Assembly: GCA_963802635.1 (NCBI GenBank)
Contig: CAWDJJ010000003.1
Location: 636,553-700,552 of the forward strand
Length of the DNA: 64,000 bases
Direction of reading: 5' to 3'
From: an uncultured Chloroflexia bacterium
GTDB taxonomy: Bacteria; Chloroflexota; Ktedonobacteria; Ktedonobacterales; Ktedonobacteraceae
This document shows, piece by piece, positions 14,497-26,503 of this stretch. The notes beneath the pieces are model-generated. The model had not been told where the DNA came from. It did not search any database and saw only the letters and a list, made by a program, of their open reading frames with translations. Positions within the stretch are counted from its first letter, which is position 1, and each line of letters opens with the position of its first letter. The translations under genes and the position numbers were made by a program.

Positions 14497-15738
14497 ATGA
14501 TAGATACCAAGCGTGCCATGACGGGAACAACGCTTACATTACATAAATCAACAGAGCAAGTCAATTCTGAGAAGCCATTCGACATTGTCGAGCAACTCCT
14601 TTCCAAGGAGCTTGATTATACACCCGAGGATGACGTGGAAACAGACGAGGATAAGGGTGAGCCAGAGCTGGAGGAGGATCTCGGCACGCTAGAAACGGGA
14701 CCACTTGAGTTAGAGACAGGGCCGCTTGAGATGGAAGAGGCAGGCAATGTACACGAAGAAATAACTCCATTAGCTAGCGTAGCGGATCTGGAAGATGCCA
14801 TCGCGGCATTACCAACGATACCCAGCGGGGGAGAGCATCCTACACGTCGTCCTGCTGCTGTACGCCGTCGGCGTTCAGAAGACCAGGACGAGCACGCGGT
14901 CAATCCCGCAGATGTAGGTGAGTCTGATGCGGTAATGACGTATTTACGCGAAATTGGCCGCGTTCCGATGATTACACATGAGCGGGAAGTTGAACTGGCG
15001 AAGCGTATTGAAAATGGCGACCGCGACGCTATGAAACAGTTTATTCTGGCAAACCTGCGCCTCGTTGTGAGCATTGCGAAACGCTATGTCGGACGTGGCC
15101 TGACTTTACTGGACCTGATCCAGGAAGGCAATATCGGTTTGATCCGCGCGGTGCAACGCTACGACTGGCGGCGTGGGCATCGGTTCTCTACTCATGCTAC
15201 CTGGTGGATTCGCCAGGCCATTAGCCGCGCCGTGGCAGACAAGGGCCGCACGATCCGTCTACCTGTTTACGTCAATACGGCCTTGAACCGTATTCGCCGC
15301 GAACGTCAGCGTCTGTTGCAGGAACTTGGACGTGAGCCAACAGAAGTAGAATTGGCGGAGGCAACTGGCCTTGATCCGCTACGCATGATCGAGTTACAAT
15401 CAGCACCCGGCGCGCCTGTTTCTCTGGAGTTGCCCGTTGGCGAGGACGAAGAGCAGGAACTGGGCGATGTGCTGGCCGACACAGAATCAGCCTCACCCGA
15501 GGAGCTAGCAACGACCCAGACCCTCAAAGATGAAGTACAGAGCGTGCTGGAATCGGTGCTTACACCACGTGAGCAACTGGTTTTACAGTTGCGTTTTGGT
15601 TTGGGCAATGGTCAGGCACATCCGCTCGAACAGGTAGGACGTGAACTGGGTATTACGCGCGAGCGGGTCCGCCAGATTGAAGCCGGTGCCCTGGCAAAAC
15701 TACGTCAGCCACCCGTGCTTGATCGCTTACGTGGCTAA
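14497..15738 (+). CDS. sigA: RNA polymerase sigma-70 factor (principal-type)
   Basis: acidic region 1.1; region 2 'LIQEGNIGLIRAVQRYD...FSTHATWWIRQAI'; region 4 'LTPREQLVLQLRFGL...ELGITRERVRQIE'. Confidence 0.85.
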   Translation: MIDTKRAMTGTTLTLHKSTEQVNSEKPFDIVEQLLSKELDYTPEDDVETDEDKGEPELEEDLGTLETGPLELETGPLEMEEAGNVHEEITPLASVADLEDAIAALPTIPSGGEHPTRRPAAVRRRRSEDQDEHAVNPADVGESDAVMTYLREIGRVPMITHEREVELAKRIENGDRDAMKQFILANLRLVVSIAKRYVGRGLTLLDLIQEGNIGLIRAVQRYDWRRGHRFSTHATWWIRQAISRAVADKGRTIRLPVYVNTALNRIRRERQRLLQELGREPTEVELAEATGLDPLRMIELQSAPGAPVSLELPVGEDEEQELGDVLADTESASPEELATTQTLKDEVQSVLESVLTPREQLVLQLRFGLGNGQAHPLEQVGRELGITRERVRQIEAGALAKLRQPPVLDRLRG

Positions 15739-15830: not shown

Positions 15831-18314
15831 CTATCTGGATCTTTTTTGCCTGCCTAGATCACGTTCGATATGCTGGACATCTTTGACTCTCTCAAGGCGC
15901 GTAAAGAGGCGCTGCAGTTGTTCCTGGTCGCTAATTTCCACTGTGACATTCACTACAATCGTCTCTTTATTGCCGCCGATATGGAAATTCACGGACATCA
16001 AGTTTGCCCCGGTATCAGAAACGACGGTCGCCAAGTCACGGATCAAGCCACTACGATCACGAGCCGTAATCACAATCGGCGCGTGGTATGTTTGCTGCTG
16101 CATGCCATGCCAGCTCACAGGAACCAGCCGTTCACTATCACGTTCGCGGAAGCGGGCCAGGTTGCGGCAATCAACACGATGCACAATGACCCCTTTCCCG
16201 CGACTGACAAAGCCCACAATCTCATCTCCCGGCAGAGGACAACAACAATTCGCCAGCTTCGTCAGCAAGCCGCTCACCCCGGCAACTTCCATTTGCCCAC
16301 TACTGACCTGCTTCGCACTGGTCGTAGGCAACGAGATTGGCTCCTCACTCTCCTTTGTATCCTTGCTCTCTTTGCCCTCACGGAGTTGCCAGTATTCAGC
16401 GAGCTTGACAATAGCCGCACGCGGACGCACATCATCAGCACCAATAGCCGCCAACAGGTCATCTAACGACTCCACATTTAGCTCTTTGCACAGCCAATCC
16501 GCAGCGTCCTCAGTCACACTATCCAGACTGCGCTGGCTCATCGCCTTCAACTCACGATCCAGCCGCTCACGCCCAATCTGGATATTGATAGGGCGTTCAT
16601 AGGTTTTGAGATAACGCCGAATCTTGTTGCGAGCTGCCGCCGTCCGCGCAAAATTTAACCAATCGCGCGTAGGATGCGCCGTACGGTTCGTCACAATATC
16701 GACGATGTCCCCGCTCTTCAATTCATAGTCCAGCGGCACCATACGCGTGACCAGGCGTTCCCCATCGTTATTGCCCACCTGCGTGATAATACGCGCGCCC
16801 GCACATCTATCACCAACCATCGTATGGATACGATAGGCAAAATCGAGCGGCGTCGAACCAACCGGCAGATCTTTCACCTCACCCTTAGGCGTAAAGACAA
16901 AAATCTGCTCCTGGAAGATATCCCCTTTGACGGCTTCAACAAACTCAGCGTCACTCGCATTGGCAGTGCGCAGATCATGCTGCCAATCAGCCAATTGGTG
17001 CAACCAAGTCAACAGTTCTTTGGCAGACGCCGAAGCATGATCACCAACGTCCTTGTAGTGCCAGTGCATGGCGACACCGTACTCGGCCATCTCATGCATC
17101 GCGTGCGTACGAATCTGGATCTCTACCAATTGATCATCCAGGCAGAAAACAGTCGTATGGAGCGCACTATATCCATTGGGCTTAGGATTGGCAATAAAAT
17201 CCTTGATACGCCCTTCTTTCGGCTTCCAGAGACTGTGTACATGTCCCAGCGCAATATAGCAATCAGTTGTGGTATCCACCAGAATACGGAAGGCAATCAG
17301 ATCGTGGATCTGGCTGATATCAGCCGCAGCTTTCAAATGCTCCAGGTCTTCAGTATCACCCATGTTGCGCGCCAGCTTGCGATAGAAACTATACGCGTGC
17401 TTCACACGTCCAGATATCTCCGCATTGACACCGACTGCAGCCATCTCTGTGCGCAACACACCACACACACGCTCAACGTAAGAACGCCAGTGCTCGCTCT
17501 CCATTTCGACGATATCGCTGACCCAGCTATATTTATCTGGCTCAAGCACCTGAAAAGCGAGATCCTGCAATTCACTCTCCACCTTCGACATACCCAGACG
17601 TCCAGCTAGCGGCGCATAAATCTCGCGCGTCTCCTCTGCCATCATCAGCATCTCTTGACGATCACCTTGATAGAAAGGCACACACACAAGGCGCATCGCA
17701 TGCAAACGATAAGCGAGCTTAAGCAAGACAACGCGTGGATCATCAGCCATCGCCATAAACATCTTACGCACTGTTTCTGCCTGCTGACGACGCATAGCTT
17801 CACGGATGCGTGGCTTCTTGCTTTCAACAGACTGAGGCATACCCGTACTCTCGCGCTCATCATATACTTTTTTGGAAGTTATAGCTGGCAGGCTCTGAAT
17901 AGCGAGCATAGCACCTGTCGCAACATTCTGCTTCTTGCGCTCCAGGATATTAAGACGTGCCATGCTCCCGACGACGCGCGCAGTAGGAGCACCTAGCACC
18001 TGTTCGACCCGCTCAAGCAAGAGGAGATCGGCATCGACGGCCTCGAAGACCAGGCCAGCAGAGATACCAATCGCATCAACATGCATGACCTGCGCAAGAA
18101 TAGTTGTGACCGCTAGCGCATGTTCCAACGGAGGAATTGGACGCGTTGCCATAGCAGGAACATCCTGACAGGTCTCTTGCGCAAGATTGAAGGCCAGCAA
18201 CACCCTATCAACGTCACCAGGAGTCATATAGGAACTCACAAGTGAGAGCAGGTGTGCCATAGCATCCGGGTAGGTATGGCCTACATAATGTTGTTCTACA
18301 GACCTATCTATCAT
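15831..18314 (-). CDS. relA: RelA/SpoT-homolog (p)ppGpp synthetase with degenerate hydrolase domain
   Basis: 827 aa; synthetase motifs 'RVKHAYSFYRK', 'NGYSALHTTV', 'EIQIRTHAMHEMAEYGVAMHWHYK'; TGS and ACT present; HD motif replaced ('LVFEAVDAD' instead of 'LLHDVVEDT', 'RLHAMR' instead of 'RLHNMR'). Confidence 0.85.
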   Translation of the reverse strand: MIDRSVEQHYVGHTYPDAMAHLLSLVSSYMTPGDVDRVLLAFNLAQETCQDVPAMATRPIPPLEHALAVTTILAQVMHVDAIGISAGLVFEAVDADLLLLERVEQVLGAPTARVVGSMARLNILERKKQNVATGAMLAIQSLPAITSKKVYDERESTGMPQSVESKKPRIREAMRRQQAETVRKMFMAMADDPRVVLLKLAYRLHAMRLVCVPFYQGDRQEMLMMAEETREIYAPLAGRLGMSKVESELQDLAFQVLEPDKYSWVSDIVEMESEHWRSYVERVCGVLRTEMAAVGVNAEISGRVKHAYSFYRKLARNMGDTEDLEHLKAAADISQIHDLIAFRILVDTTTDCYIALGHVHSLWKPKEGRIKDFIANPKPNGYSALHTTVFCLDDQLVEIQIRTHAMHEMAEYGVAMHWHYKDVGDHASASAKELLTWLHQLADWQHDLRTANASDAEFVEAVKGDIFQEQIFVFTPKGEVKDLPVGSTPLDFAYRIHTMVGDRCAGARIITQVGNNDGERLVTRMVPLDYELKSGDIVDIVTNRTAHPTRDWLNFARTAAARNKIRRYLKTYERPINIQIGRERLDRELKAMSQRSLDSVTEDAADWLCKELNVESLDDLLAAIGADDVRPRAAIVKLAEYWQLREGKESKDTKESEEPISLPTTSAKQVSSGQMEVAGVSGLLTKLANCCCPLPGDEIVGFVSRGKGVIVHRVDCRNLARFRERDSERLVPVSWHGMQQQTYHAPIVITARDRSGLIRDLATVVSDTGANLMSVNFHIGGNKETIVVNVTVEISDQEQLQRLFTRLERVKDVQHIERDLGRQKRSR

Positions 18315-18538
18315 AAATCATCTATAACTATCTGGCGATCCAGAGTACCTTGAACAAATAACAACTCCACTGACCAATATACACTATACGATATACGCCG
18401 CCTGCTAATTTACAAGAACATCTTTTAAAATATACGTATCATGCCACTACTAGTTAGATTGACGCAGGTCAACATACAGAACAAAAAAATAGGGTAACGC
18501 TAACGCACAACATTGCGGATATGCCTGGGATTGGGAGA

Positions 18539-18571
18539 GGATACCCGGGTCCTGATTTAATCAGGGTATCT
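18539..18571. repeat. nested palindrome ggataccc-gggt-cctgatttaatcagg-gtatc
   Basis: near-perfect 15-bp palindrome cctgatttaatcagg flanked by gataccc/gggtatc arms, about 37 bp downstream of the second rel gene. Confidence 0.5.
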
Positions 18572-18607
18572 ACAATAGATTGAGAGCACCCACAAGCAAA
18601 GCTAGCC

Positions 18608-21064
18608 CTATTTTCCTATTGCACGCTCTACATTGACAACATTTTTCACCTGGCGCAGACGACGTAAAATACGTTCAATCTGGTCGATGACACCCGTCTC
18701 CGCCGCAATTTCCAGCGTGGCTGTAATCACGGCTTTCTGTAAAGAAGCATTGGTGGTAGAGGTAACAGCCGCCATATTGATACTCGAATCAGCGACCACA
18801 GCCGCCACATCGCGCAACAAGCCCGCACGATCATGCGCAACCAGCGTTATCGGCACCAGATAGTACTCCGGCTTTATACGTAACCAGTCGAGGTCTACCA
18901 GCGCACTGGTGTTATCACGGTAACGGCGTAATGTACGACAGTCGGCGCGATGTACCAGCATACCCTTGCCCGGTGAAAAAAAGCCCACTATCGCATCCCC
19001 CAGGATAGGACAACAACATTGCGCCAGTTTCACCAGACGCACAATCGCGCCATCTTTGTCCTGAAGATAATCATTTTCATACTCATCAGGATGGTTGTCA
19101 TTTTCGGCGTTGACCTCATCTCGTTTTGGCAAGAGCGGAAGCAGATGCTCTAGCACCTGCTCGATGAGCAAATCTTCACGACCAAGTGCGATGTAGATGT
19201 CGTCACGCGTGGCATACTTTTTGAAGGTTGTACTGGCCGCCACGCTGTCCGTGCAGAGATGTAGCAGTAGATCCTCAACAACATCACAGATACCACCCTG
19301 ACCAGTAGCCTTCAAAGCCAGATCCAGCCGCTCACGGCCCAATTGCAAATTGATCTCACGTTCATAGGTTTTAAGATAACGCCGAATTTTGTTACGAGCC
19401 GCCGCCGTCCGCGCAAAAGAGAGCCAGTCACGCGTCGGATGCACCGTACGATTCACCATGATATCGACAATCTCGCCGCCTTTCAATTCATAGTCGAGTG
19501 GCACGAGACGAGTGACCAAGCGGCCACTCTCATCCTGATTGGTAATAATACGCGCACCGGCACAATGATCACCCAGATCGGTATGAATACGGTAAGCCAT
19601 ATCCAATGGCGTCGAACCACGCGGCAGATCCTTTACATCACCTTTCGGCGTAAACACAAAGATCTGCTCTTGAAAGATATCCCCTTTGACTGCCTCAACA
19701 AATTCATCTGCACTGCGCTGTGGCAATTCACGCTGCCACTCGCGTAGCTGCTCGATCCAGGCCACCATCTCACGATACGAGAGACGCCAACTGCTCGGCA
19801 CAGGCTCTTTTTTGCTACTCCCCGCCTTTTCGTCCTTGCCCACTCGCTCCTTCAGATACCAGTAGCTGGCAATGCCATAATCAGCAGTGCGCTGCATATC
19901 ATAGGTGCGGATCTGGATCTCTGCCAGACGGTCCTGCAAACAAAAAACAGTCGTATGCAACGACTGATAGCCATTTAATTTAGGAGTGGCAATAAAATCT
20001 TTAATCCGACCGTCCTTCGGTCGCCACAACGCGTGGATATGTCCTAAAGACAGGTAGCATTCATAATCGCTATCAACCAGGATACGGAAGGAAACAAGAT
20101 CGTGGATCTGGCTGAGTTCGTTGCTACTTGCCAGCGGCATATCCTCCAACTTGCGATTGATGCTAGCCAGGTGCTTACGCCACGCCAGCACATCGGCATG
20201 AATACCGGCTCGCTCCATCTCCTCACGCAGAATATGACACACCTCGTCCACAAACGGCTGGCGTTTCTGTACTTCATCCTCAACTTGCCGGGCCAGGCGC
20301 GTATATTTTTCAGGTTCGAGATAGCTAAAGACGAGATCCTCTAACTCAGCCTGCGCAATATACATACCCAGACGACAGGCCAACGGAGCATAAATCTCAC
20401 TGGTCTCACGCGACGTATTTTGTTGCTGGGCAGGCGACATAGCACTGAGCGTTCGCATATTATGCAAGCGATCAGCAATCTTGAGCACAACCACACGCGG
20501 ATCTTCAGCCATCGCCAGTAGCATTTTACGCACAGTTTCAATGCGCTGACGTCGCTTGTCAACCAGGGACGGCGGCGCGGGGAGTAGTGGGTCTGCACAC
20601 TGTGCTTCGGAGGAGGCAGCTTTTCTCGCTGTCGTAGCAGGCTTGCCAGCCAACGCATCAAACTTCGTCACCCCATCAACAATGTTAGCAACCACCGCAC
20701 CAAACTGCTCGCGTAAGTTGTCAAGGGAAAAATCAGTATCTTCAACCACATCATGCAACAGCGCTGCGACGATACCGTCCGCATCAATGCGCATGACAGC
20801 TAGCAGGAAGGCTACCTCTAAGGGATGCTGGATGTATGGCTCACCAGAACGGCGCACAACCCCAACATGTGCCTGATCGGCCAGATCATAGGCACACTGA
20901 ATTTTCTCCATATCGTGCGGAGCAAGATACTGACCTGTTTCGGCCAGCAGGTCCTCAAGAGTCATTTGCGAAGGAGACAAGTTCGCCTCCGATGCTGTCG
21001 CCGTTCTCATCAAAGGTATAGCGGACCCAGACTGATCAGCAACTTTTTCGAAATTGGTAGCCAT
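18608..21064 (-). CDS. rel: bifunctional Rel/SpoT-type (p)ppGpp synthetase/hydrolase
   Basis: intact HD motifs 'QHPLEVA...LLHDVVEDT', 'RLHNMRT'; synthetase 'NGYQSLHTTV', 'EIQIRTYDMQ'; TGS, ACT; track start is a TTG at 21079, first ATG at 21064. Confidence 0.85.
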   Translation of the reverse strand: MATNFEKVADQSGSAIPLMRTATASEANLSPSQMTLEDLLAETGQYLAPHDMEKIQCAYDLADQAHVGVVRRSGEPYIQHPLEVAFLLAVMRIDADGIVAALLHDVVEDTDFSLDNLREQFGAVVANIVDGVTKFDALAGKPATTARKAASSEAQCADPLLPAPPSLVDKRRQRIETVRKMLLAMAEDPRVVVLKIADRLHNMRTLSAMSPAQQQNTSRETSEIYAPLACRLGMYIAQAELEDLVFSYLEPEKYTRLARQVEDEVQKRQPFVDEVCHILREEMERAGIHADVLAWRKHLASINRKLEDMPLASSNELSQIHDLVSFRILVDSDYECYLSLGHIHALWRPKDGRIKDFIATPKLNGYQSLHTTVFCLQDRLAEIQIRTYDMQRTADYGIASYWYLKERVGKDEKAGSSKKEPVPSSWRLSYREMVAWIEQLREWQRELPQRSADEFVEAVKGDIFQEQIFVFTPKGDVKDLPRGSTPLDMAYRIHTDLGDHCAGARIITNQDESGRLVTRLVPLDYELKGGEIVDIMVNRTVHPTRDWLSFARTAAARNKIRRYLKTYEREINLQLGRERLDLALKATGQGGICDVVEDLLLHLCTDSVAASTTFKKYATRDDIYIALGREDLLIEQVLEHLLPLLPKRDEVNAENDNHPDEYENDYLQDKDGAIVRLVKLAQCCCPILGDAIVGFFSPGKGMLVHRADCRTLRRYRDNTSALVDLDWLRIKPEYYLVPITLVAHDRAGLLRDVAAVVADSSINMAAVTSTTNASLQKAVITATLEIAAETGVIDQIERILRRLRQVKNVVNVERAIGK

Positions 21065-21370
21065 ACTGAATACCTGCAACTACATTCTGTACCATCTGTC
21101 CGCGCCTGATCGGTTCTCCCCACGCTTTCGGCACTACAATTACAAGTATATACCCATCCTGGACAAAACAAATGTTACCACTCTATTATAAAGAGCAAAA
21201 TTTGACTGTCAAGCGGATACTGTTTGCCATCCCAAATCCCAAAATGCTTGAGGAAGATAAAACCAGGTACGCAATGGAGGTACATACCATGTACATTCGT
21301 CTATAAGAGGAAACGCAAACGCAGCCTGCATTATTCCACGAGAGAAAGCAACCAGGCTGGCTCCATAATA

Positions 21371-21600
21371 TACCCATAGGCATTCAGAAACGCGTGCTTA
21401 ATTCCGCCTGGCAACGAAGCTGACGCTTCTACTGCTGCGCAGTCAGCCAGGCGGATCAGCAACTGCCGTGGCTCCTCGTAGGCTGTCAGAAACGAGGCTG
21501 TCGCCGCTAGCTTCGCTCATGTGGCGGAGCGGCGTGCGCCCTGACGGCTCATCTGACAGAGCGGCGTGCGCTTCGCTCATCTGAATGTAAGGCAATATAT
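21371..21600 (+). repeat. MITE-family full copy (~230 bp)
   Basis: same termini as the 12.9 kb copy with a longer internal palindromic region. Confidence 0.7.
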
Positions 21601-21751
21601 ACGACAAAGGCAAAGCCAAGAACACACCATGGCTTAGCCTCTTTTTTTGTTCTGATGGGAAATTCCTGTAGGCGCTCCCTGTTATTGAACTGGGTATATG
21701 CTCGTAGGAAAAGCACAACTCAACACAGCAGACAAACGCGAACAGACCATG

Positions 21752-22060
21752 TTAACTGCGCGCGACGCTGCGTACCTTATCATAGCAAGGACTACAGTAG
21801 ACCGGGCGGTCATTCTTAGGCAAGAATGGGACCTGAGTCTCAGTACCACATTCAGCACAAATCACTGTATGCATTTCTCGCGGTGCACGCTCTCGACTAC
21901 CGGAACCACCAGCCGAATTACGGCGATTGGCTCGGCAGGAAGGGCAGCGACCAGGCTGATTCATCAGACCTTTTTGCTGGTAGAACTCTTGTTCTCCGGC
22001 AGTGAACACGAAGTCAACTCCGCACTCACGGCACTTTAGGGTTTTGTCATCGAAGCTCAA
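21752..22060 (-). CDS. zinc-ribbon (zf-trcl-type) protein
   Basis: two CxxC...CxxC units ('CRECG...CPSCR', 'CAECG...CSPCY'); 'FVFTAGEQEFYQQKG' matches the probable zinc-binding domain family. Confidence 0.6.
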   Translation of the reverse strand: MSFDDKTLKCRECGVDFVFTAGEQEFYQQKGLMNQPGRCPSCRANRRNSAGGSGSRERAPREMHTVICAECGTETQVPFLPKNDRPVYCSPCYDKVRSVARS

Positions 22061-22265
22061 CTAGGGACCTCCTTGTGATATGTTGGTAATCCTCAGGGCC
22101 ATATCCTAGCAGATGTCACCAGTTTTTTCCCCTACCAGCGTGGGATTTTATACCCTGGACGAGCACTGTATGCGAGACCGAGATTGGATACCGGTGGAAA
22201 GCATACACTATCTTTTAAGGATTTGCAAGCGTTCTTATGACAATTTCCGACTATGCTACATATTT

Positions 22266-22604
22266 TTATGTATCTTTTATATTATCTTTATACGATTCTG
22301 ACTTGACGTTTATGAGACAATAACCAAAAGGAATAATGGGCTGTAAAAATCTGGTAGCTCTCCACTTCAATCGCTCAATAAAAGCCGTATTGAACTCGGT
22401 ACATCCTTTTGTCTTCAAGAGAAGCTCTTTTGCTTTCTCACTTGTGCCCTTTGTCAGTTTTCTTGTGATCTCCACGACCCGCTTTTCCTTGCTATGCTTG
22501 ATGACCGTGGTAATGCAGAGATACAGCAGGTCTCTGGACGCTGGCTTTTTTTCAAGCTCCCCCTCCTTTTTCACCAGTTCGTGGAGAGCTACCGAAGTCG
22601 GCAC
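22266..22604 (-). pseudogene. transposase C-terminal remnant (DDE 'ER' region)
   Basis: 'NTAFIERLKWRATRFLQPIIPFGYCLINVKS' resembles IS1-like transposase C-termini; no N-terminal catalytic part. Confidence 0.3.
22300..22356. repeat. 57-bp IS-end-like sequence, copy A
   Basis: gacttgacgtttatgagacaataaccaaaaggaataatgggctgtaaaaatctggta, about 90% identical to copy B. Confidence 0.7.
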
Positions 22605-22620
22605 TCCGCTTTTTTAGCTG

Positions 22621-23595
22621 CTACTTTGCCGCTGGTGACAGCAACCTTAACTCCACCCCTGATTGGGGTCCGACGGTGGATTTCCTTCTGTCGGCGGCGG
22701 CGCTCCCCCTGGCTGCGGCCCGTAGTTCGGATGCAGCGGCACTCCCCCTGGCTGCGGCCCGTAGTTCGGATACTGCCCATAGTTCGGATGCTGCTGCACT
22801 CCCCCTTGCTGTTGCACGTAGTTCGGATGCTGCTGCACTCCCCCTTGCAATATCTGCTTTTGGTCGTAATTCATATTTTGCCTCCTCTGCACTTCTAGCT
22901 GATACGGCGCGTTGTGCTGATTTTGCTGCAATTGTATATTTTGATTTTTTTTGCATCTTTCGTAGCTCTCGTAACGCTTGGAGCGCTGCTTTTTGCTCCG
23001 GCGTTCCCCTGTGCCCTATGGCTCTGATTTGCTGGGAAAGCCTAGCCTCCTCAGGATGTTCCCTCTTCATCCGCTCTACGCCTCCTTTCCCTGAGTAGGA
23101 GGACATGTACAAGGCTTCAGCCGCCAGGTGCGCTTCCGCCAGTTGGATACCATCGATCTGTATAGGCAAAACTGCTGGCCTACTTCGTAGCTCTCGTAAC
23201 GCTTGGAACGCTGCTTTTTGCTCCGGTGTTCCCCTGTGCCCTACGGCTTTGAGTTCCTGGAAACGCCTGGCCTCCACAGGATAGTCCCTCTCCATCTGAT
23301 CTACGCCTCCTTTCCCTGAGTAGGAGACGTTGTACAAGTTTTCAGCGAGCAGATGATCTTCCGTTAGTTGGACATTTGTGATGTCTATTTTTGGTCTTCT
23401 CCCCGATCCAGAGGAAGTCTGGCCCGGTGCAGGGCCTGATGGGAGGTCTCCGGACCTCACCGCTTGCGTCACATCCAAACCACCAGCAGAACTCCACCCA
23501 GCGTTCGGCGAGGTTTCTCCCTCTACGTATTCTGGACCCCAATATGGGTTCCACGGCAGCGATTGGTTCCCCGGCGAGTCGCCGCGTCCTGACAT
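22621..23595 (-). CDS. hypothetical protein with internal duplications (frame uncertain in 3' repeats)
   Basis: RBS aaaggag before ATG 23595; two ~75-aa repeats ('YSGKGGV...HRGTPEQKAA(F/L)QALRELR'); an alternative frame gives a PNYGPQPGG tail. Confidence 0.35.
   Translation of the reverse strand: MSGRGDSPGNQSLPWNPYWGPEYVEGETSPNAGWSSAGGLDVTQAVRSGDLPSGPAPGQTSSGSGRRPKIDITNVQLTEDHLLAENLYNVSYSGKGGVDQMERDYPVEARRFQELKAVGHRGTPEQKAAFQALRELRSRPAVLPIQIDGIQLAEAHLAAEALYMSSYSGKGGVERMKREHPEEARLSQQIRAIGHRGTPEQKAALQALRELRKMQKKSKYTIAAKSAQRAVSARSAEEAKYELRPKADIARGSAAASELRATARGSAAASELWAVSELRAAARGSAAASELRAAARGSAAADRRKSTVGPQSGVELRLLSPAAK
22700..22860. repeat. about 40-bp imperfect tandem repeats (about 4 units)
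   Basis: ctccccctggctgcggcccgtagttcggatgc(a/t)gc... repeated. Confidence 0.65.
22961..23410. repeat. 225-bp tandem duplication (2 units)
   Basis: units begin cgtagctctcgtaacgcttgga at 22961 and 23186. Confidence 0.7.
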
Positions 23596-23609
23596 CTTGT
23601 GCTCCTTTC

Positions 23610-24185
23610 TCAATGACCTTGTTCATCCTGAGTGGTGTTCCACCTGATGGTCTCCTTTTCCGATCCTCCTCTTCTTCTCATATTATACCAGCTCTTTCTT
23701 GCATCAACGGCTGCTGAGCGCTTCTTCTCCGAAAACTGACCCTCCCTTGCCCATTTTCTCCCACAACTGCTCTTCGGCATCTCCGCCACGCACCCGCCTC
23801 GTATCATCTCTTCTCCGGCGACAGGAATGCGGCTCTTCTGGGCCGGTCCCCTTGAGGTCGGCACGCACGCGCACCAAGCGCAAAGAGATGGACTCTTTTT
23901 TCGTCGCTGTCCAGCCCAGGATAATGCCAGACTTGCCACACCATGGTGGATACCCCCATATCCGTAGTCTTGGCTGCCCCATCGGTCGCCCAAGCGCTCC
24001 ACCCAATGCTTCGCAGAGTCGTAGGACCATCCATCAGCCGCATCATCCGTCGGCAACACCCTGGATGCTACCGGAGCCACTGGCTCCTCGATCACGCCTG
24101 CCGTGGCTGGCTCCTCGGCAACCCTATGCTTGGAGCCAGGAACATCGCTGGCTTCCTCCTCTGGCTCCTGGTGATGCTTCACCAT
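23610..24185 (-). CDS. hypothetical protein (possibly decayed; 3' half may be UTR)
   Basis: acidic plausible N-terminal half; C-terminal half is purine-rich basic sequence that looks like the 5'UTR/RBS of the downstream gene; alternative frames also open. Confidence 0.25.
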   Translation of the reverse strand: MVKHHQEPEEEASDVPGSKHRVAEEPATAGVIEEPVAPVASRVLPTDDAADGWSYDSAKHWVERLGDRWGSQDYGYGGIHHGVASLALSWAGQRRKKSPSLCAWCACVPTSRGPAQKSRIPVAGEEMIRGGCVAEMPKSSCGRKWAREGQFSEKKRSAAVDARKSWYNMRRRGGSEKETIRWNTTQDEQGH

Positions 24186-24365
24186 AAACAGCCTCCGACG
24201 ATCTTCGGCGGCGGCGATATCTCGTGCCAGGTGCTCATCTCCCCAAAGGGTCCTGCGGCCCTGTCAGCCACGAAGCGGCTCAACATCGTACAGAAGAGGG
24301 GCATCTTGTTATCGCCGTCTGGGTGCCGCCGCTCTGGCCCAATCACCTTCGTCTCCTGCGCGACC

Positions 24366-24422
24366 GACTTGACGTTTATGAGATAATAACCAATAAGAAT
24401 AATGGGCTGTAAAAATCTAGTA
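24366..24422. repeat. 57-bp IS-end-like sequence, copy B
   Basis: direct repeat of copy A just upstream of tgt; minus-strand translation '...RFLQPIILIGYYLINVKS'. Confidence 0.7.
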
Positions 24423-24476
24423 AAACGCTTTCTACAGGCCCATTGCACATTTTTAGTGAACATATGTTTGGGGTTC

Positions 24477-25658
24477 ATGTCAACATTTTCCTTTACCATC
24501 GACGCCGATAGCTCGACGAGCTGGGCACGAGCGGGCACTATCCAGACCCCTCATGGCACGATTCAGACGCCCATTTTCATGCCGGTAGGGACGCAAGCAA
24601 CAGTCAAGAGTGTCGCGCCTGAAGAGCTACACGCGGCAGGGGTACAGATTATCCTTGCCAATACCTATCATCTCATGCTCAGACCAGGTTCTGAACTGAT
24701 TGCGTCCTTTGGCGGACTGCACTCATTTATGCACTGGGACGGTCCTATCCTCACCGATAGCGGGGGCTTCCAGGTCTGGAGCCTGGGACATCTACGCAAG
24801 CTAAGCAAGGAAGGCGTAGTCTTCAAATCACATCTTGACGGCTCACAACACATCTTGACACCCGAGCGTGTGATGCAAATCGAAGCAGAACTGGGCGCAG
24901 ATATTATCCTGCCGCTCGACATTTGCGCGCCTTATCCCTGTAGCACACATGAGGCTCAGCAAGCCATGGAGTGGACCCATCATTGGGAAGAACGCGCCCT
25001 GCTAGCCAAAGAACAGTATAATCCTTCTCAGAGCTTATTCGGGATCATTCAAGGAGCCTTTGAGCCAGCACTGCGCCAGCAAAGTGCGCAAGTCATCGCC
25101 AGTATGCCATTTCCAGGGCTTTCCATCGGCGGACTCTCAGTGGGCGAACCAAAAGAAATGATGTGGGAGATGCTGCGCGCTGTCACGCCAGTACTGCCAC
25201 GCCACAAGCCACGTCATTTACTAGGAGTTGGCTCACCCGAAGATCTGGTAGAGGGTGTGGGCCTGGGTATGGATATGTTTGATTGTGTTTTACCAACACG
25301 CGTGGCACGTCACGGCGGACTCTTCACCGCCAATGGACGCGTCAGCATCAAAAACGCTCGTTTTCGCAGCGAGCATGGACCCATAGAGGCAGGCTGTGAT
25401 TGCTACACGTGCCAGCATTACAGCGCCGCGTACGTCCACCATCTCGCGCGCACAGAAGAGCAGCTGTATTATCGTCTAGGTAGCATTCATAATATTCGCT
25501 TCATGTTGCGCCTCGCCAGTCAGTTGCGGGAAGCGATTATCGCAGATCGCTACAGTGACTTCCGCAGCGAATTTCAGGCCCGCTATGTTCCGGCATCGGA
25601 GCAGGTACGCGAAGCACAACGCGAGAAGTGGAAAGCAGCGAGAGAACGTCCAACATAG
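24477..25658 (+). CDS. tgt: queuine tRNA-ribosyltransferase
   Basis: 'TPIFMPVGTQATVK', 'LGVGSPEDL', zinc site 'CDCYTCQHYS...H'; the track N-terminus (MGCKNLV...) is the repeat and is rejected. Confidence 0.85.
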   Translation: MSTFSFTIDADSSTSWARAGTIQTPHGTIQTPIFMPVGTQATVKSVAPEELHAAGVQIILANTYHLMLRPGSELIASFGGLHSFMHWDGPILTDSGGFQVWSLGHLRKLSKEGVVFKSHLDGSQHILTPERVMQIEAELGADIILPLDICAPYPCSTHEAQQAMEWTHHWEERALLAKEQYNPSQSLFGIIQGAFEPALRQQSAQVIASMPFPGLSIGGLSVGEPKEMMWEMLRAVTPVLPRHKPRHLLGVGSPEDLVEGVGLGMDMFDCVLPTRVARHGGLFTANGRVSIKNARFRSEHGPIEAGCDCYTCQHYSAAYVHHLARTEEQLYYRLGSIHNIRFMLRLASQLREAIIADRYSDFRSEFQARYVPASEQVREAQREKWKAARERPT

Positions 25659-25681
25659 CAAGCATATCGCAAGGAACAAGT

Positions 25682-26503
25682 ATGCAAAAGGCACCATACC
25701 GCTTTATCAACACAGGAGTACAAGACGCAGCCCTCAATATGGCTATCGATGAAGCTATACTCCGTCACCACCTCAAAGACGCAGTTCCACCAACTTTGCG
25801 GGTATTCCGCTGGTCGCAACCGGCGATCTCGCTGGGACGATTTCAAAACGTCAAGCGCGAAATCGCCGTCGATGTCTGCCAACAACAAGGCATCGCGCTT
25901 GTACGCCGTCCCACTGGAGGAAGAGCTGTCTATCACCGAGACGAATTTACCTACAGCATCGTCATTAGCAAGCACAATGGCATCCCCTCAGGAGTCGTCG
26001 CCGCATACGCCTACCTCTGCCAGGGATTGCTTGTCGCGCTTGCCAGCCTGGGAATACAGGCCGAAATCAGTGATGAACATGTAAGTAAAAATCCCTCAGC
26101 AGCTTGCTTCGCATCATCAACGCAGGCTGACGTGATCAGCAATAATTTTAAGCTGGTAGGTAGCGCTCAGGTATGGAAGCAAGATGGACTGCTCCAACAA
26201 GGATCATTGCCGCTAGATGATTGCTCAGCAGAATTCTTTAGCATGCTGCGCTTTGCTAGCACAGAAGAGCGCCAGGCGGCCCTGAGCCTCTACCAGCAGA
26301 AAACCGCCCCATTACATGCCTTTGCCCCGACAGCCACATGGGATACAGCAGCTCAGGCATTTCAAAATGGCTTTAGCACACTTCTGCAAAGGCAATTTGC
26401 GCCGGGCGAATTGAGTACATCAGAGTGGGAACTGGCCCGGCAACTTGTGGAGCAGAAATACAGCGAGCTAACGTGGAGTAAAGAACATATCACATTAGCC
26501 TGA
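25682..26503 (+). CDS. lipoate-protein ligase / octanoyltransferase family protein (LplA/LipM-like catalytic domain)
   Basis: 'RRPTGGRAVYHRDEFTYSIV' BPL_LplA_LipB motif; RBS aaggaacaag. Confidence 0.7.
   Translation: MQKAPYRFINTGVQDAALNMAIDEAILRHHLKDAVPPTLRVFRWSQPAISLGRFQNVKREIAVDVCQQQGIALVRRPTGGRAVYHRDEFTYSIVISKHNGIPSGVVAAYAYLCQGLLVALASLGIQAEISDEHVSKNPSAACFASSTQADVISNNFKLVGSAQVWKQDGLLQQGSLPLDDCSAEFFSMLRFASTEERQAALSLYQQKTAPLHAFAPTATWDTAAQAFQNGFSTLLQRQFAPGELSTSEWELARQLVEQKYSELTWSKEHITLA

What the first reader, a model, noticed from the sequence alone, without database searches (positions are those of the whole stretch)
15831..21079. Tandem RelA/SpoT paralogs: hydrolase-dead synthetase next to a bifunctional enzyme
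Two full-length RSH genes (827 and about 820 aa, about 40% identity by eye) lie head-to-tail on the minus strand. The upstream-transcribed copy (18608-21064) has intact HD hydrolase motifs (HPLEVA, LLHDVVEDT, RLHNMRT). The downstream copy (15831-18314) has them replaced (PPLEHALAV, LVFEAVDAD, RLHAMRL). Both keep the synthetase motifs. This mirrors the RelA/SpoT division of labour known from Gamma/Betaproteobacteria. Here it would be an independent duplication in a Gram-positive-type genome, which usually carries a single long Rel.
Basis: partly seen in the sequence, partly recalled or inferred. Interest (0 to 1): 0.55.

Follow-up and report, generated by a model that had tools for sequence, protein, structure and literature searches.

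The report
Tandem alarmone synthetase/hydrolase gene pair
Two neighbouring copies of the enzyme that makes and destroys the bacterial starvation signal (p)ppGpp have split the job between them in a whole class of soil bacteria (Ktedonobacteria), repeating independently what E. coli did with RelA and SpoT; this is real and tidy, but it is another case of a known evolutionary pattern.

Summary
Two full-length long RelA/SpoT-homologue genes lie head to tail on the minus strand: copy A at 15831-18314 (827 aa) and copy B at 18608-21064 (818 aa). They are 44% identical.

Copy A has lost the hydrolase metal and catalytic residues (HD to FE, ED to DA, D144Y, N148A) but keeps every conserved synthetase residue. 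Copy B keeps all hydrolase residues.

The genome belongs to the Ktedonobacteria (Chloroflexota). The B-then-A tandem recurs in 68 of 80 related loci, including Ktedonobacter racemifer and Thermogemmatispora, in a conserved tgt / B / A / sigma-70 neighbourhood.

A and B are each other's closest relatives (neighbour-joining bootstrap 100/100). They share a 7-12 residue insertion in the TGS domain that is absent from 160 other long RSHs. This is an old duplication within the lineage, independent of proteobacterial RelA/SpoT, and not a xenolog.

Its whole clade carries R241W (the adenine-stacking arginine), H342Y (the equivalent of E. coli RelA H354Y, reported to reduce synthesis) and Y345L/M. A more divergent lineage has a partner with a clearly dead synthetase.

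Best reading: A is a RelA-like monofunctional synthetase, and B is a SpoT-like hydrolase with an attenuated synthetase. It is a new member of a known kind.

The parts
15831..18314 (-). Copy A: long RSH of 827 aa, predicted [hS], meaning a pseudo-hydrolase domain with an intact (p)ppGpp synthetase, plus TGS, AH/RIS and ACT domains.
   Evidence: ORF and translation. Pfam and NCBIfam. Residue mapping.
17589..18194 (-). Copy A pseudo-HD domain (aa 41-242). Substitutions are F90/E91 for H77/D78, D94/A95 for E81/D82, Y202 for D144 and A206 for N148. H65 (= H53) is retained.
   Evidence: HD_4 scores 83 bits against 151 bits in copy B. All 78 orthologs are non-canonical at positions 77, 78, 81, 82, 144 and 148. 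The N-terminal HD part scores only 1.3 bits in the one PDB alignment that includes it (8fr8). Mean ortholog identity of 0.65 is well above the linker regions.
17049..17411 (-). Copy A synthetase domain (aa 302-422). R303, K305, S309, K313, D338, R343, K378, N380, Y382, H386, E398, Q400, R402, E411, H417 and Y420 are all canonical. The motif is RIKD. The catalytic loop carries a 12-aa insertion.
16725..16799 (-). TGS segment of copy A containing the clade-specific insertion (GARIITQVGNNDGERLVTRMVPLDY: 25 residues against 13 in other long RSHs).
18315..18607 (.). Intergenic spacer of 293 bp between B and A. It has no terminator-like site on the minus strand and only weak (9/12) promoter-like matches. 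The spacer is 15-636 bp in related genomes.
   Evidence: There is no Rfam match.
18608..21064 (-). Copy B: long RSH of 818 aa from the ATG (an alternative TTG start lies at 21079). Predicted hydrolase-competent, with a remodelled synthetase ATP pocket.
20363..20893 (-). Copy B HD hydrolase domain (aa 58-234). R71, H80, H104, D105, E108, D109, D198 and N202 are all canonical.
   Evidence: HD_4 at 151 bits and HD at 38 bits. Gap-free alignment to RelSeq residues 7-110. All 70 orthologs are canonical. Codons checked.
19847..20176 (-). Copy B synthetase domain (Pfam match, aa 297-406). The catalytic residues D322 and E382 and the G-nucleotide site are retained. It carries D395 (E336D), S400, Y401 (H342Y) and L404 (Y345L). 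A294 and W295 (G240A and R241W, codon 20180-20182) lie just N-terminal of this range.
   Evidence: BsRelQ R46 aligns with RelSeq R241.
19490..19558 (-). TGS segment of copy B with the same clade-specific insertion (GARIITNQDESGRLVTRLVPLDY: 23 residues against 13).
21185..21212 (-). Perfect sigma-70 consensus promoter-like site (TTGACA-16-TATAAT, 12/12), about 120 nt upstream of the copy B ATG. It is a candidate promoter for a B-A transcript.
   Evidence: with the sequence checked. This is a consensus match only; transcription is not shown.

Best explanation
This is a vertically inherited, chromosomal, probably co-transcribed pair of long RelA/SpoT-homologue paralogs. It arose by tandem duplication of a Rel gene in the Chloroflexota lineage leading to the Ktedonobacteria, and the two copies have divided the two opposing activities between them.

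- **Copy A (downstream).** A RelA-like monofunctional (p)ppGpp synthetase. Its hydrolase domain is a conserved pseudo-enzyme domain without metal ligands. Its synthetase site, the tRNA-sensing TGS histidine and the zinc-finger/RIS ribosome-binding region are intact. It is inferred to be the ribosome- and starvation-activated alarmone source.
- **Copy B (upstream).** The cell's long-RSH (p)ppGpp hydrolase, SpoT-like. Its synthetase domain is kept under purifying selection, but the ATP pocket is remodelled (R241W, H342Y, Y345L, G240A). It is inferred to have weak or conditional synthetase activity.
- **Linkage.** Placing the hydrolase gene first in the same transcription unit would guarantee that the potentially toxic synthetase is never made without its antagonist.

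Shown here: gene structure, residue states, conservation, phylogeny and synteny. Inferred: the enzymatic activities, co-transcription and the physiological roles.
For: **Paralogy and domain architecture**
- BLASTP and the family searches establish two full-length long RSHs.

**Hydrolase site**
- Copy A is non-canonical at H77, D78, E81, D82, D144 and N148 in 78/78 orthologs.
- Copy B is canonical in 70/70.
- The mapping is anchored on the 1VJ7 alignment, where the numbering reproduces the literature residues H53, H77, D78, D144, R241, D264 and E323.

**Synthetase site**
- Copy A is canonical at every column that is at least 90% conserved in 136 diverse long RSHs, except S310A and A341M.
- Copy B has R241W in 62/70 orthologs, H342Y in 70/70, Y345L/M in 68/70, E336D in 67/70 and A341S in 68/70.
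- No other cluster representative shows W241, Y342 or L345.

**Function of the changed residues**
- E. coli RelA H354 aligns with RelSeq H342. H354Y is reported to reduce ppGpp synthesis and G251E to abolish it (PMC4154780, citing Gropp 2001).
- RelSeq R241 aligns with BsRelQ R46. By identical motif spacing (R-x-K-x3-S-x3-K) it corresponds to SaRelP R78, which stacks on the ATP adenine (PMC5794853).
- R241 is listed among the RelSeq substrate and product contacts (PMC8801413; PMC13299517).

**A further step in the same direction**
- In a divergent lineage (L087) the same tandem exists. The upstream partner has an intact HD but a dead synthetase: R269T, E323D, Q325H and loss of the AAHWxYK helix motif.

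**Common origin**
- Neighbour-joining bootstrap for A+B monophyly is 100/100, both with and without the HD region.
- It is 91/100 and 72/100 after adding Chloroflexota outgroups and the long-branch L087 partner.
- The TGS insertion is present in all A-like and B-like proteins and in 0 of 160 others.

**Age and vertical inheritance**
- The B-then-A tandem is present in 68 loci across Ktedonobacterales and Thermogemmatispora.
- The tgt and sigma-70 neighbours are conserved.
- GC content resembles the surroundings.

**Operon**
- The intergenic gap is 50 bp or less in 14 loci and 5 bp in L087.
- There is no terminator-like site in the 293-bp spacer, and a 12/12 consensus promoter lies upstream of B.
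Against: - No activity was measured for either protein.
- Copy B's synthetase domain evolves as slowly as copy A's (mean ortholog identity 0.759 against 0.761).
- Copy B keeps K243, S247, K251, D264, R269, K297, K304, N306, Y308, H312, E323, Q325 and R327 in at least 69/70 orthologs. It may therefore still be a competent synthetase.
- Trp can stack on adenine as Arg does, and H354Y in RelA was reported as a reduction, not a loss.
- E336 is variable in other active-looking RSHs, so E336D carries little weight.
- A gapless alignment of the helix with RelQ does not place H342 on the ribose-binding His of the small synthetases. Its structural role is not established here.
- Whole genomes could not be scanned, so a third long RSH, or small alarmone synthetases or hydrolases elsewhere, cannot be excluded.
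- The phylogeny is neighbour-joining on corrected p-distances, not maximum likelihood.
- Co-transcription is inferred only from spacing and consensus scans.
Confidence: 0.75

Rival explanations
1. Copy B is a fully bifunctional Rel with normal synthetase and hydrolase activities, and copy A is an added monofunctional synthetase. The clade-specific changes in B's ATP pocket would then be functionally neutral or only tune kinetics.
For: - B retains all catalytic and G-nucleotide-binding residues in at least 69/70 orthologs.
- Its SYNTH domain is as conserved as A's.
- Trp at 241 could still stack on adenine. This is an inference from the stacking role of the equivalent Arg (PMC5794853).
- H354Y in RelA is described as a reduction rather than a loss.
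Against: - Positions 241, 342 and 345 are 98-99% invariant in 136 diverse long RSHs. The B residues at these positions occur in no other representative.
- The related L087 partner has gone on to lose the catalytic E323, Q325 and R269. This suggests the synthetase of the B lineage is dispensable once A exists.
- B has the longer stem branch outside the HD region (0.24 against 0.03).
Confidence: 0.3
2. Complete subfunctionalisation. Copy B is a pure hydrolase whose synthetase domain is catalytically dead and kept only as a regulatory or conformational module, as in Moraxellaceae SpoT[Hs].
For: - The ATP-pocket substitutions are fixed across the clade.
- There is the RelA H354Y precedent.
- The L087 partner is a clearly dead version.
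- Atkinson et al. 2011 describe SpoT[Hs] in Moraxellaceae (PMC3153485).
Against: A dead site would not be expected to keep D264, E323, K243, K251, R269, Q325 and the whole G-nucleotide site invariant across 70 orthologs, at the same overall conservation as the active paralog.
Confidence: 0.2
3. One copy is a horizontally acquired xenolog (for example, copy A derived from a proteobacterial relA) rather than a paralog.
For: - Copy A's best PDB match is E. coli RelA.
- Its pseudo-HD shares F77, D81 and A82 with E. coli RelA.
Against: - A groups with B at 100/100, away from E. coli RelA and 18 EXDD-type representatives.
- A has RIKD, not EXDD.
- A shares the unique TGS insertion with B.
- A scores 475 against the RelA equivalog cut-off of 728.
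- The tandem and its neighbours are conserved across the class.
Confidence: 0.02
4. Copy A is a decaying or non-enzymatic duplicate (a pseudo-enzyme overall) with no catalytic role.
For: Its HD domain is degenerate and less conserved than B's (0.65 against 0.79).
Against: - The ORF is intact in 78 genomes.
- Every conserved synthetase residue is retained in 78/78.
- SYNTH, TGS and RIS are conserved at 0.76-0.81.
- The substituted pseudo-HD residues are themselves fixed (E78, D81 and Y144 in 78/78).
Confidence: 0.03

Closest known systems
E. coli / gamma- and beta-proteobacterial RelA[hS] and SpoT[HS]
   Same: - Both are two long RSH paralogs derived from a Rel duplication.
- One has a dead but conserved pseudo-hydrolase domain and a fully intact synthetase.
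- The other has an intact hydrolase and a synthetase that is weak (known for SpoT, inferred for B).
- Both keep the TGS, zinc-finger and ACT regulatory regions.
- Copy A even shows the same residues as E. coli RelA at three HD positions (F77, D81, A82).
   Different: - The origin is independent.
- Copy A keeps the Rel-type RXKD motif instead of EXDD.
- Both proteins fail the RelA and SpoT equivalog cut-offs.
- The genes are adjacent and co-oriented in 68 of 80 related loci. From established knowledge, relA and spoT are unlinked in E. coli; here they were fetched at 2.91 Mb and 3.82 Mb.
- E. coli SpoT keeps R241, H342 and Y345, whereas copy B does not.
Moraxellaceae RelA[hS] / SpoT[Hs] (complete subfunctionalisation; Atkinson et al. 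2011, PMC3153485)
   Same: It has a hydrolase-only partner next to a synthetase-only partner. The divergent L087 pair looks like this.
   Different: In the window's clade, the B synthetase site is only partly altered and remains strongly conserved. The lineage and origin are different.
Lineage-specific Rel duplicates RshA (Actinobacteria), RshB (Bacteroidia), RshC (Bacillus) and RshD (delta-proteobacteria) of Atkinson et al. 2011
   Same: These are second long RSH copies nested within Rel that arose by duplication inside one phylum. RshB is described as having an HD domain that diverged 'similar to that for RelA'.
   Different: - The phylum is different. That survey listed only Rel[HS] for Chloroflexi and sampled no Ktedonobacteria.
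- Here both copies have changed reciprocally and are kept as a tandem.
- No Rsh sequences were compared directly.
Bifunctional Rel[HS] (RelSeq 1VJ7, RelMtb 5XNX, B. subtilis Rel)
   Same: This is the ancestral type. Copy B's N-terminal half aligns to these with E of about 1e-82 to 1e-86 and has all hydrolase residues. Both copies have RXKD.
   Different: A single Rel carries both activities in one protein. Here copy A has lost hydrolysis and copy B has an altered ATP pocket.

Membership tests
Long RSH (RelA/SpoT family, NCBIfam TIGR00691; Pfam HD_4 + RelA_SpoT + TGS + AH/RIS + ACT) | Score above the curated TIGR00691 cut-off (499.2 bits). | tested here: met
   A scores 555.4 bits and B scores 595.1 bits.
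Long RSH (RelA/SpoT family, NCBIfam TIGR00691; Pfam HD_4 + RelA_SpoT + TGS + AH/RIS + ACT) | Full multidomain architecture: HD, SYNTH, TGS, helical/zinc-finger (RIS) and ACT. | tested here: met
   All five Pfam domains are above the gathering score in both proteins; the AH_RIS match in B is weaker, at 28.7 bits.
RelA (proteobacterial monofunctional synthetase, NCBIfam NF008124 equivalog) | Score above the equivalog cut-off (728 bits). | tested here: not met
   A scores 475.5 bits and B scores 410.1 bits.
RelA (proteobacterial monofunctional synthetase, NCBIfam NF008124 equivalog) | EXDD motif in the synthetase domain (RelSeq positions 295-298). | tested here: not met
   Copy A has R-I-K-D, whereas E. 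coli RelA has E-F-D-D.
RelA (proteobacterial monofunctional synthetase, NCBIfam NF008124 equivalog) | Phylogenetic placement within the RelA clade. | tested here: not met
   A groups with B at 100/100, not with E. coli RelA or the EXDD-type representatives.
RelA (proteobacterial monofunctional synthetase, NCBIfam NF008124 equivalog) | Degenerate hydrolase site combined with an intact synthetase site. This is the functional character, not membership. | tested here: met
   Copy A is non-canonical at 77, 78, 81, 82, 144 and 148 in 78/78 orthologs, and all synthetase residues are canonical.
RelA (proteobacterial monofunctional synthetase, NCBIfam NF008124 equivalog) | Activation by deacylated tRNA on stalled ribosomes. 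| not testable with these tools
   Only the sequence prerequisites are seen: the TGS His equivalent to RelA H432 (AYRIHT) and the CCCP...HR.DC zinc-finger motif are present in A and B.
SpoT (proteobacterial, NCBIfam NF008303 equivalog) | Score above the equivalog cut-off (947 bits). | tested here: not met
   B scores 483.9 bits and A scores 458.1 bits.
SpoT (proteobacterial, NCBIfam NF008303 equivalog) | Intact HD hydrolase residues (R44, H53, H77, D78, E81, D82, D144, N148). | tested here: met
   Copy B and all 70 B orthologs are canonical.
Bifunctional Rel[HS] | All conserved synthetase substrate-binding and catalytic residues are present together with an intact HD. | tested here: inconclusive
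   Copy B has an intact HD. D264, E323 and the G-nucleotide site are intact, but R241W, H342Y and Y345L are fixed across the clade. The consequence for activity is unknown.
RshA-D lineage-specific Rel duplicates (Atkinson 2011) | Clustering with the named subgroup in a tree or HMM classification. | not tested
   No RshA-D reference sequences or HMMs were available. The taxonomic distributions given in the paper (Actinobacteria, Bacteroidia, Bacillus, delta-proteobacteria) do not include Chloroflexi.

The most novel reading that the evidence does not exclude
Copy B's synthetase domain may be neither weak nor dead but re-specialised. Its catalytic core is fully conserved, while the ATP/adenine pocket is uniquely remodelled (W241, Y342, L404; seen in no other long-RSH cluster representative) and is under purifying selection as strong as in the active paralog. 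That combination could mean a changed pyrophosphate donor, a different product (such as a (pp)pApp-like nucleotide), or an obligatory functional coupling with copy A (for example a heteromer encoded by one operon). That would make this a new catalytic or regulatory variety of long RSH.
Probability: 0.1. Interest if true: 0.7.

Novelty: new member of a known kind. Interest (0 to 1): 0.38.

Why it matters
- **Convergent evolution.** This is a clean, independent replicate of the RelA/SpoT division of labour in a distant phylum. The Ktedonobacteria are large-genome, mycelial, spore-forming Chloroflexota. Splitting a bifunctional alarmone enzyme into a dedicated synthetase and a hydrolase-dominant partner is therefore a recurrent solution.
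- **A graded series for study.** It offers a single-copy Rel sister group, then the Ktedonobacterial pair with a partly remodelled B synthetase, then the L087-type pair with a dead B synthetase. This lets the order of events in subfunctionalisation be studied.
- **Genetic insurance.** The conserved hydrolase-first tandem suggests selection to keep the antagonist genetically tied to the synthetase. The unlinked proteobacterial genes do not show this.
- **Annotation.** Public annotations seen in the search outputs name both proteins generically, as 'RelA/SpoT family protein', '(p)ppGpp synthetase' or bifunctional synthetase/hydrolase. Where a copy A ortholog carries the 'bifunctional' label, that is probably wrong.

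Tried and rejected
- **Xenolog or recent acquisition.** Rejected on class-wide synteny, phylogeny and the shared insertion.
- **Regulatory RNA in the leader or the 293-bp spacer** (riboswitch, T-box). There is no Rfam match at E of 1 or below apart from a spurious miRNA hit.
- **Mapping RelSeq H342 onto the ribose-binding His190 of SaRelP.** The L-INS-i alignment with BsRelQ is gapless in that helix and puts RelQ H155 on V339, not H342. This argument was dropped. Only the RelA H354Y mutagenesis report is used.
- **E336D as evidence of impairment.** It was down-weighted because K, D, Q and S occur at that position in other representatives.
- **The 50%-identity representative library as a source of a B-clade representative.** Its representatives (P0304, P0286) are truncated or fused, so orthologs were extracted from the 80 genome loci instead.
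- **Literature.** No paper in the held library links Ktedonobacteria with ppGpp enzymes. Supplements of Jimmy et al. 2020 are not held. Gropp et al. 2001 (PMC94912) is not held, so H354Y and G251E are cited second-hand.
- **Structure prediction.** It was not run, because the tool returns no coordinates from which residue distances could be measured.


Full report
**1. What is in the sequence**

Two long ORFs lie head to tail on the minus strand.
- Copy A is 15831-18314, with an ATG start, 827 aa.
- Copy B is 18608-21079 from a TTG, or 18608-21064 (818 aa) from the first ATG.

BLASTP gives 44% identity over the whole length, 637 bits.

Both proteins have the complete long-RSH architecture: HD_4, RelA_SpoT, TGS, RelA_AH_RIS and ACT_4. 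Both pass the NCBIfam RelA/SpoT subfamily model TIGR00691. Neither comes near the cut-offs of the RelA (NF008124) or SpoT (NF008303) equivalog models.

The HD_4 score of copy A (83 bits) is about half that of copy B (151 bits). Against solved structures, copy A's matches begin at about residue 167-178, and its N-terminal HD part scores only 1.3 bits in the one alignment that includes it (8fr8).

**2. Active-site residues**

I anchored the numbering on the RelSeq structure 1VJ7, using the alignment printed. The reconstructed numbering reproduces the literature residues H53, H77/D78, D144, R241, D264 and E323.

I then built an alignment of:
- 78 copy A orthologs;
- 70 copy B orthologs;
- 136 diverse long-RSH cluster representatives;
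- E. coli RelA and SpoT;
- RelSeq.

*Hydrolase site*
- Copy B and all 70 B orthologs are canonical at R44, H53, H77, D78, E81, D82, D144 and N148.
- In copy A, H77 is F/Y, D78 is E, E81 is D, D82 is A/S/G, D144 is Y and N148 is A/V/T/L. This holds in 78/78 orthologs, and the R44 segment is deleted.
- Three of the four Mn2+ ligands described for RelSeq, and the ED catalytic pair, are therefore gone. The role of these residues is established knowledge from Hogg et al. 2004, and PMC4154780 describes the HDXXED motif.
- The replacement residues are themselves fixed. The N-terminal HD part of A is 65% identical among orthologs, against 31-45% in the linker and insert regions. It is a conserved pseudo-enzyme domain, as in RelA, and not decaying sequence.

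*Synthetase site*
- I examined all columns that are at least 90% conserved in the 136 diverse representatives.
- The A clade is canonical everywhere except S310A and A341M.
- The B clade keeps K243, S247, K251, D264, R269, D298, K304, N306, Y308, H312, E323, Q325 and R327.
- The B clade has clade-wide changes: R241W (62/70), E336D (67/70), A341S (68/70), H342Y (70/70) and Y345L/M (68/70). In the window's B, G240 is A.
- Among the representatives, W241, Y342 and L345 occur only in the B-clade representative itself.
- E336 varies in other proteins and carries little weight.

*What these residues do*
- E. coli RelA H354 is the column of RelSeq H342. H354Y was reported to reduce ppGpp synthesis and G251E to abolish it (Gropp et al. 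2001, as cited in PMC4154780).
- R241 aligns with BsRelQ R46. It has the same R-x-K-x3-S-x3-K spacing as SaRelP R78, which stacks on the adenine of the ATP analogue (PMC5794853).
- R241 is also listed among RelSeq substrate and product contacts.

Against a dead synthetase in B: its SYNTH domain is exactly as conserved as A's (0.759 against 0.761), and the catalytic carboxylates are invariant. I therefore favour 'attenuated or conditional' over 'dead'.

**3. Whose genome, and how old is the pair**

The best protein hits to both copies are Ktedonobacteria. These include Dictyobacter, Tengunoibacter, Ktedonosporobacter and Ktedonospora. The closest is a MAG at 94-95% identity.

A scan of one genome per species returned 80 loci with a copy A ortholog at 60-95% identity. 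They include Ktedonobacter racemifer DSM 44963, strain brp13 and four Thermogemmatispora genomes.

Of 78 loci with a full-length copy A ortholog, 68 have a copy B ortholog (61-75% identity) directly upstream on the same strand. Several of the rest are cut by contig ends. The spacer ranges from 15 to 636 bp.

The neighbours are also conserved: tgt upstream in 44 loci, and a convergent sigma-70 family gene downstream in 60 loci at 78-96% identity. GC content matches the surroundings.

The pair is therefore a vertically inherited core-genome feature of the class, not a recent acquisition.

**4. Duplication or transfer**

A search of 1.84 billion cluster representatives with copy A returned the following:
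- the A cluster;
- two divergent A-like proteins (P0243, P0244), which also have degenerate HD sites and the A-specific M341;
- then a drop from 641 to 509 bits into generic Rel proteins at 35-43% identity.

Neighbour-joining trees used Kimura-corrected distances and 100 bootstraps. They give 100/100 for the monophyly of A, B and these A-like proteins against 136 diverse long RSHs and E. coli RelA and SpoT. This holds both for the full alignment and with the HD region removed, which guards against an artefact of A's fast-evolving HD.

After adding named Chloroflexota outgroups (Thermoflexus, Limnocylindrales, Chloroflexota MAGs) and a very long-branched partner protein, support is 91/100 and 72/100.

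The sister group is a set of MAG proteins around P0246. Its closest named relatives in the search are mainly Chloroflexota. They have an intact HD and no second RSH gene nearby.

A rare-change character agrees with the tree. All A-like and B-like proteins have 18-26 residues between GAR(I/V) and VPLDY in the TGS domain. All 160 other long RSHs examined, including P0246, E. coli RelA and SpoT, have 13-14.

Both copies have the Rel-type RXKD motif rather than RelA's EXDD. The duplication is thus lineage-specific and independent of the proteobacterial one.

Outside the HD region, B has the longer stem branch (0.24 against 0.03). Each copy has therefore stayed conservative in the half it is inferred to use.

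**5. A more advanced stage elsewhere**

The divergent A-like protein P0391 (in the P0244 cluster) sits 5 bp downstream of a 695-aa RSH (L087).
- That partner has a perfect HD site.
- Its synthetase has R241H, R269T, E323D, Q325H, E336D, H342L and Y345S, and it lacks the AAHWxYK segment.

This is a full [Hs]+[hS] pair. It shows that once copy A exists, the B-type synthetase can be lost. It also shares altered states at positions 241, 336, 342 and 345 with the Ktedonobacterial B clade.

**6. Expression**

A perfect sigma-70 consensus (TTGACA-16-TATAAT) lies at 21212-21185 on the minus strand, about 120 nt upstream of the B start.

The 293-bp spacer has no terminator-like site on the coding strand and only weak promoter-like matches. 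It has no Rfam family match.

Spacers of 50 bp or less occur in 14 related loci. Co-transcription as a B-A operon is therefore likely, but it is not shown.

**7. Mechanism proposed**

*Shown:* residue states, conservation, common ancestry and linkage.

*Inferred:*
- A is the dedicated synthetase. It is presumably activated by ribosomes and deacylated tRNA, since the TGS His equivalent to RelA H432 and the zinc-finger motif are present.
- B is the long-RSH hydrolase that resets the signal, with a weakened synthetase akin to SpoT.
- Hydrolase-first linkage couples production of the antagonist to that of the synthetase.
- B's RIS domain is less conserved than A's (0.58 against 0.77). This fits a looser ribosome dependence.

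**8. Comparison with what is known, and novelty**

Atkinson et al. 2011 (PMC3153485) describe the RelA/SpoT duplication, complete subfunctionalisation in Moraxellaceae, and further lineage-specific Rel duplicates RshA-D. These include RshB of Bacteroidia, with an HD that diverged 'similar to that for RelA'. Their Chloroflexi sample had only Rel[HS] and no Ktedonobacteria.

Jimmy et al. 2020 count 13 long-RSH subfamilies. None mentioned in the main text is Chloroflexi-specific.

No paper in the held library links Ktedonobacteria to ppGpp enzymes.

Among the 136 representatives, 12 Rel-type (RXKD) proteins also have degenerate HD sites. HD loss outside RelA is therefore recurrent.

The pair is a previously undescribed, but not unexpected, instance of a known pattern: a new member of a known kind. 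Its modest distinguishing features are the class-wide tandem arrangement and the unique ATP-pocket signature of B.

**9. Limits**
- No enzymology was done.
- The phylogeny is distance-based.
- Whole genomes were not scanned for other RSH genes.
- The H354Y evidence is second-hand, because the primary paper is not held.
- The structural role of H342 is not established.

Noticed in passing
window 21200-24400: Between the conserved tgt gene and copy B the window carries about 2-3 kb that has no counterpart in any of the 80 related loci, not even the 95%-identical L001. It contains orf330 (22621-23613, minus strand), which has internal repeats (GHRGTPEQKAAxQALRELR twice, and LRAAARGSAAASE several times), and orf191 (23610-24185, minus strand). 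Neither has a Pfam hit. The region has a strongly negative AT skew. It looks like a lineage-specific insertion.
   Followed up: partly
window 21752-22060 (minus strand): A small ORF of 102 aa has two CxxC...CxxC zinc-ribbon-like halves (KCRECG...CPSC and CAECG...CSPC). It lies upstream of the copy B promoter on the same strand. It was not searched against family libraries.
   Followed up: no
window 14497-15738 (plus strand): A 413-aa sigma-70 family protein (regions 1.2, 2, 3 and 4) is convergent with copy A. It is 78-96% identical in the related loci listed and matches in 60 of them, so it is a stable neighbour of the RSH pair and possibly the housekeeping sigma factor.
   Followed up: partly
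window 17304-17378 (copy A aa 313-337): The A clade has a 12-residue insertion in the synthetase catalytic loop between helix alpha13 and the D264 strand (25 residues against 13 in 135 other long RSHs). Copy B in the window has a 4-residue insertion there. The function is unknown.
   Followed up: partly
window 18036-18047 (copy A aa 90-95): The pseudo-HD of copy A has F, D and A at the positions of H77, E81 and D82. These are the same residues as in E. coli RelA, despite the independent origin. Most other EXDD-type representatives differ at these positions, so this may be parallel change or coincidence.
   Followed up: partly
locus L087:296-4839: A divergent metagenomic lineage has the same tandem with only 5 bp between the genes. 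Its upstream partner (695 aa) has an intact hydrolase but a clearly inactivated synthetase (R269T, E323D, Q325H). The organism is unidentified.
   Followed up: partly
representative proteins P0326, P0327, P0335, P0353, P0360, P0369, P0377, P0386 and others: Twelve of 136 diverse long-RSH cluster representatives combine a Rel-type RXKD motif with non-canonical hydrolase residues. This suggests further independent hydrolase losses in unnamed lineages.
   Followed up: no
window 24402-26503: tgt (queuine tRNA-ribosyltransferase, 503 bits) is followed by an overlapping lipoyl ligase/LipB-like gene. Both are conserved upstream neighbours in 34-44 related loci.
   Followed up: partly
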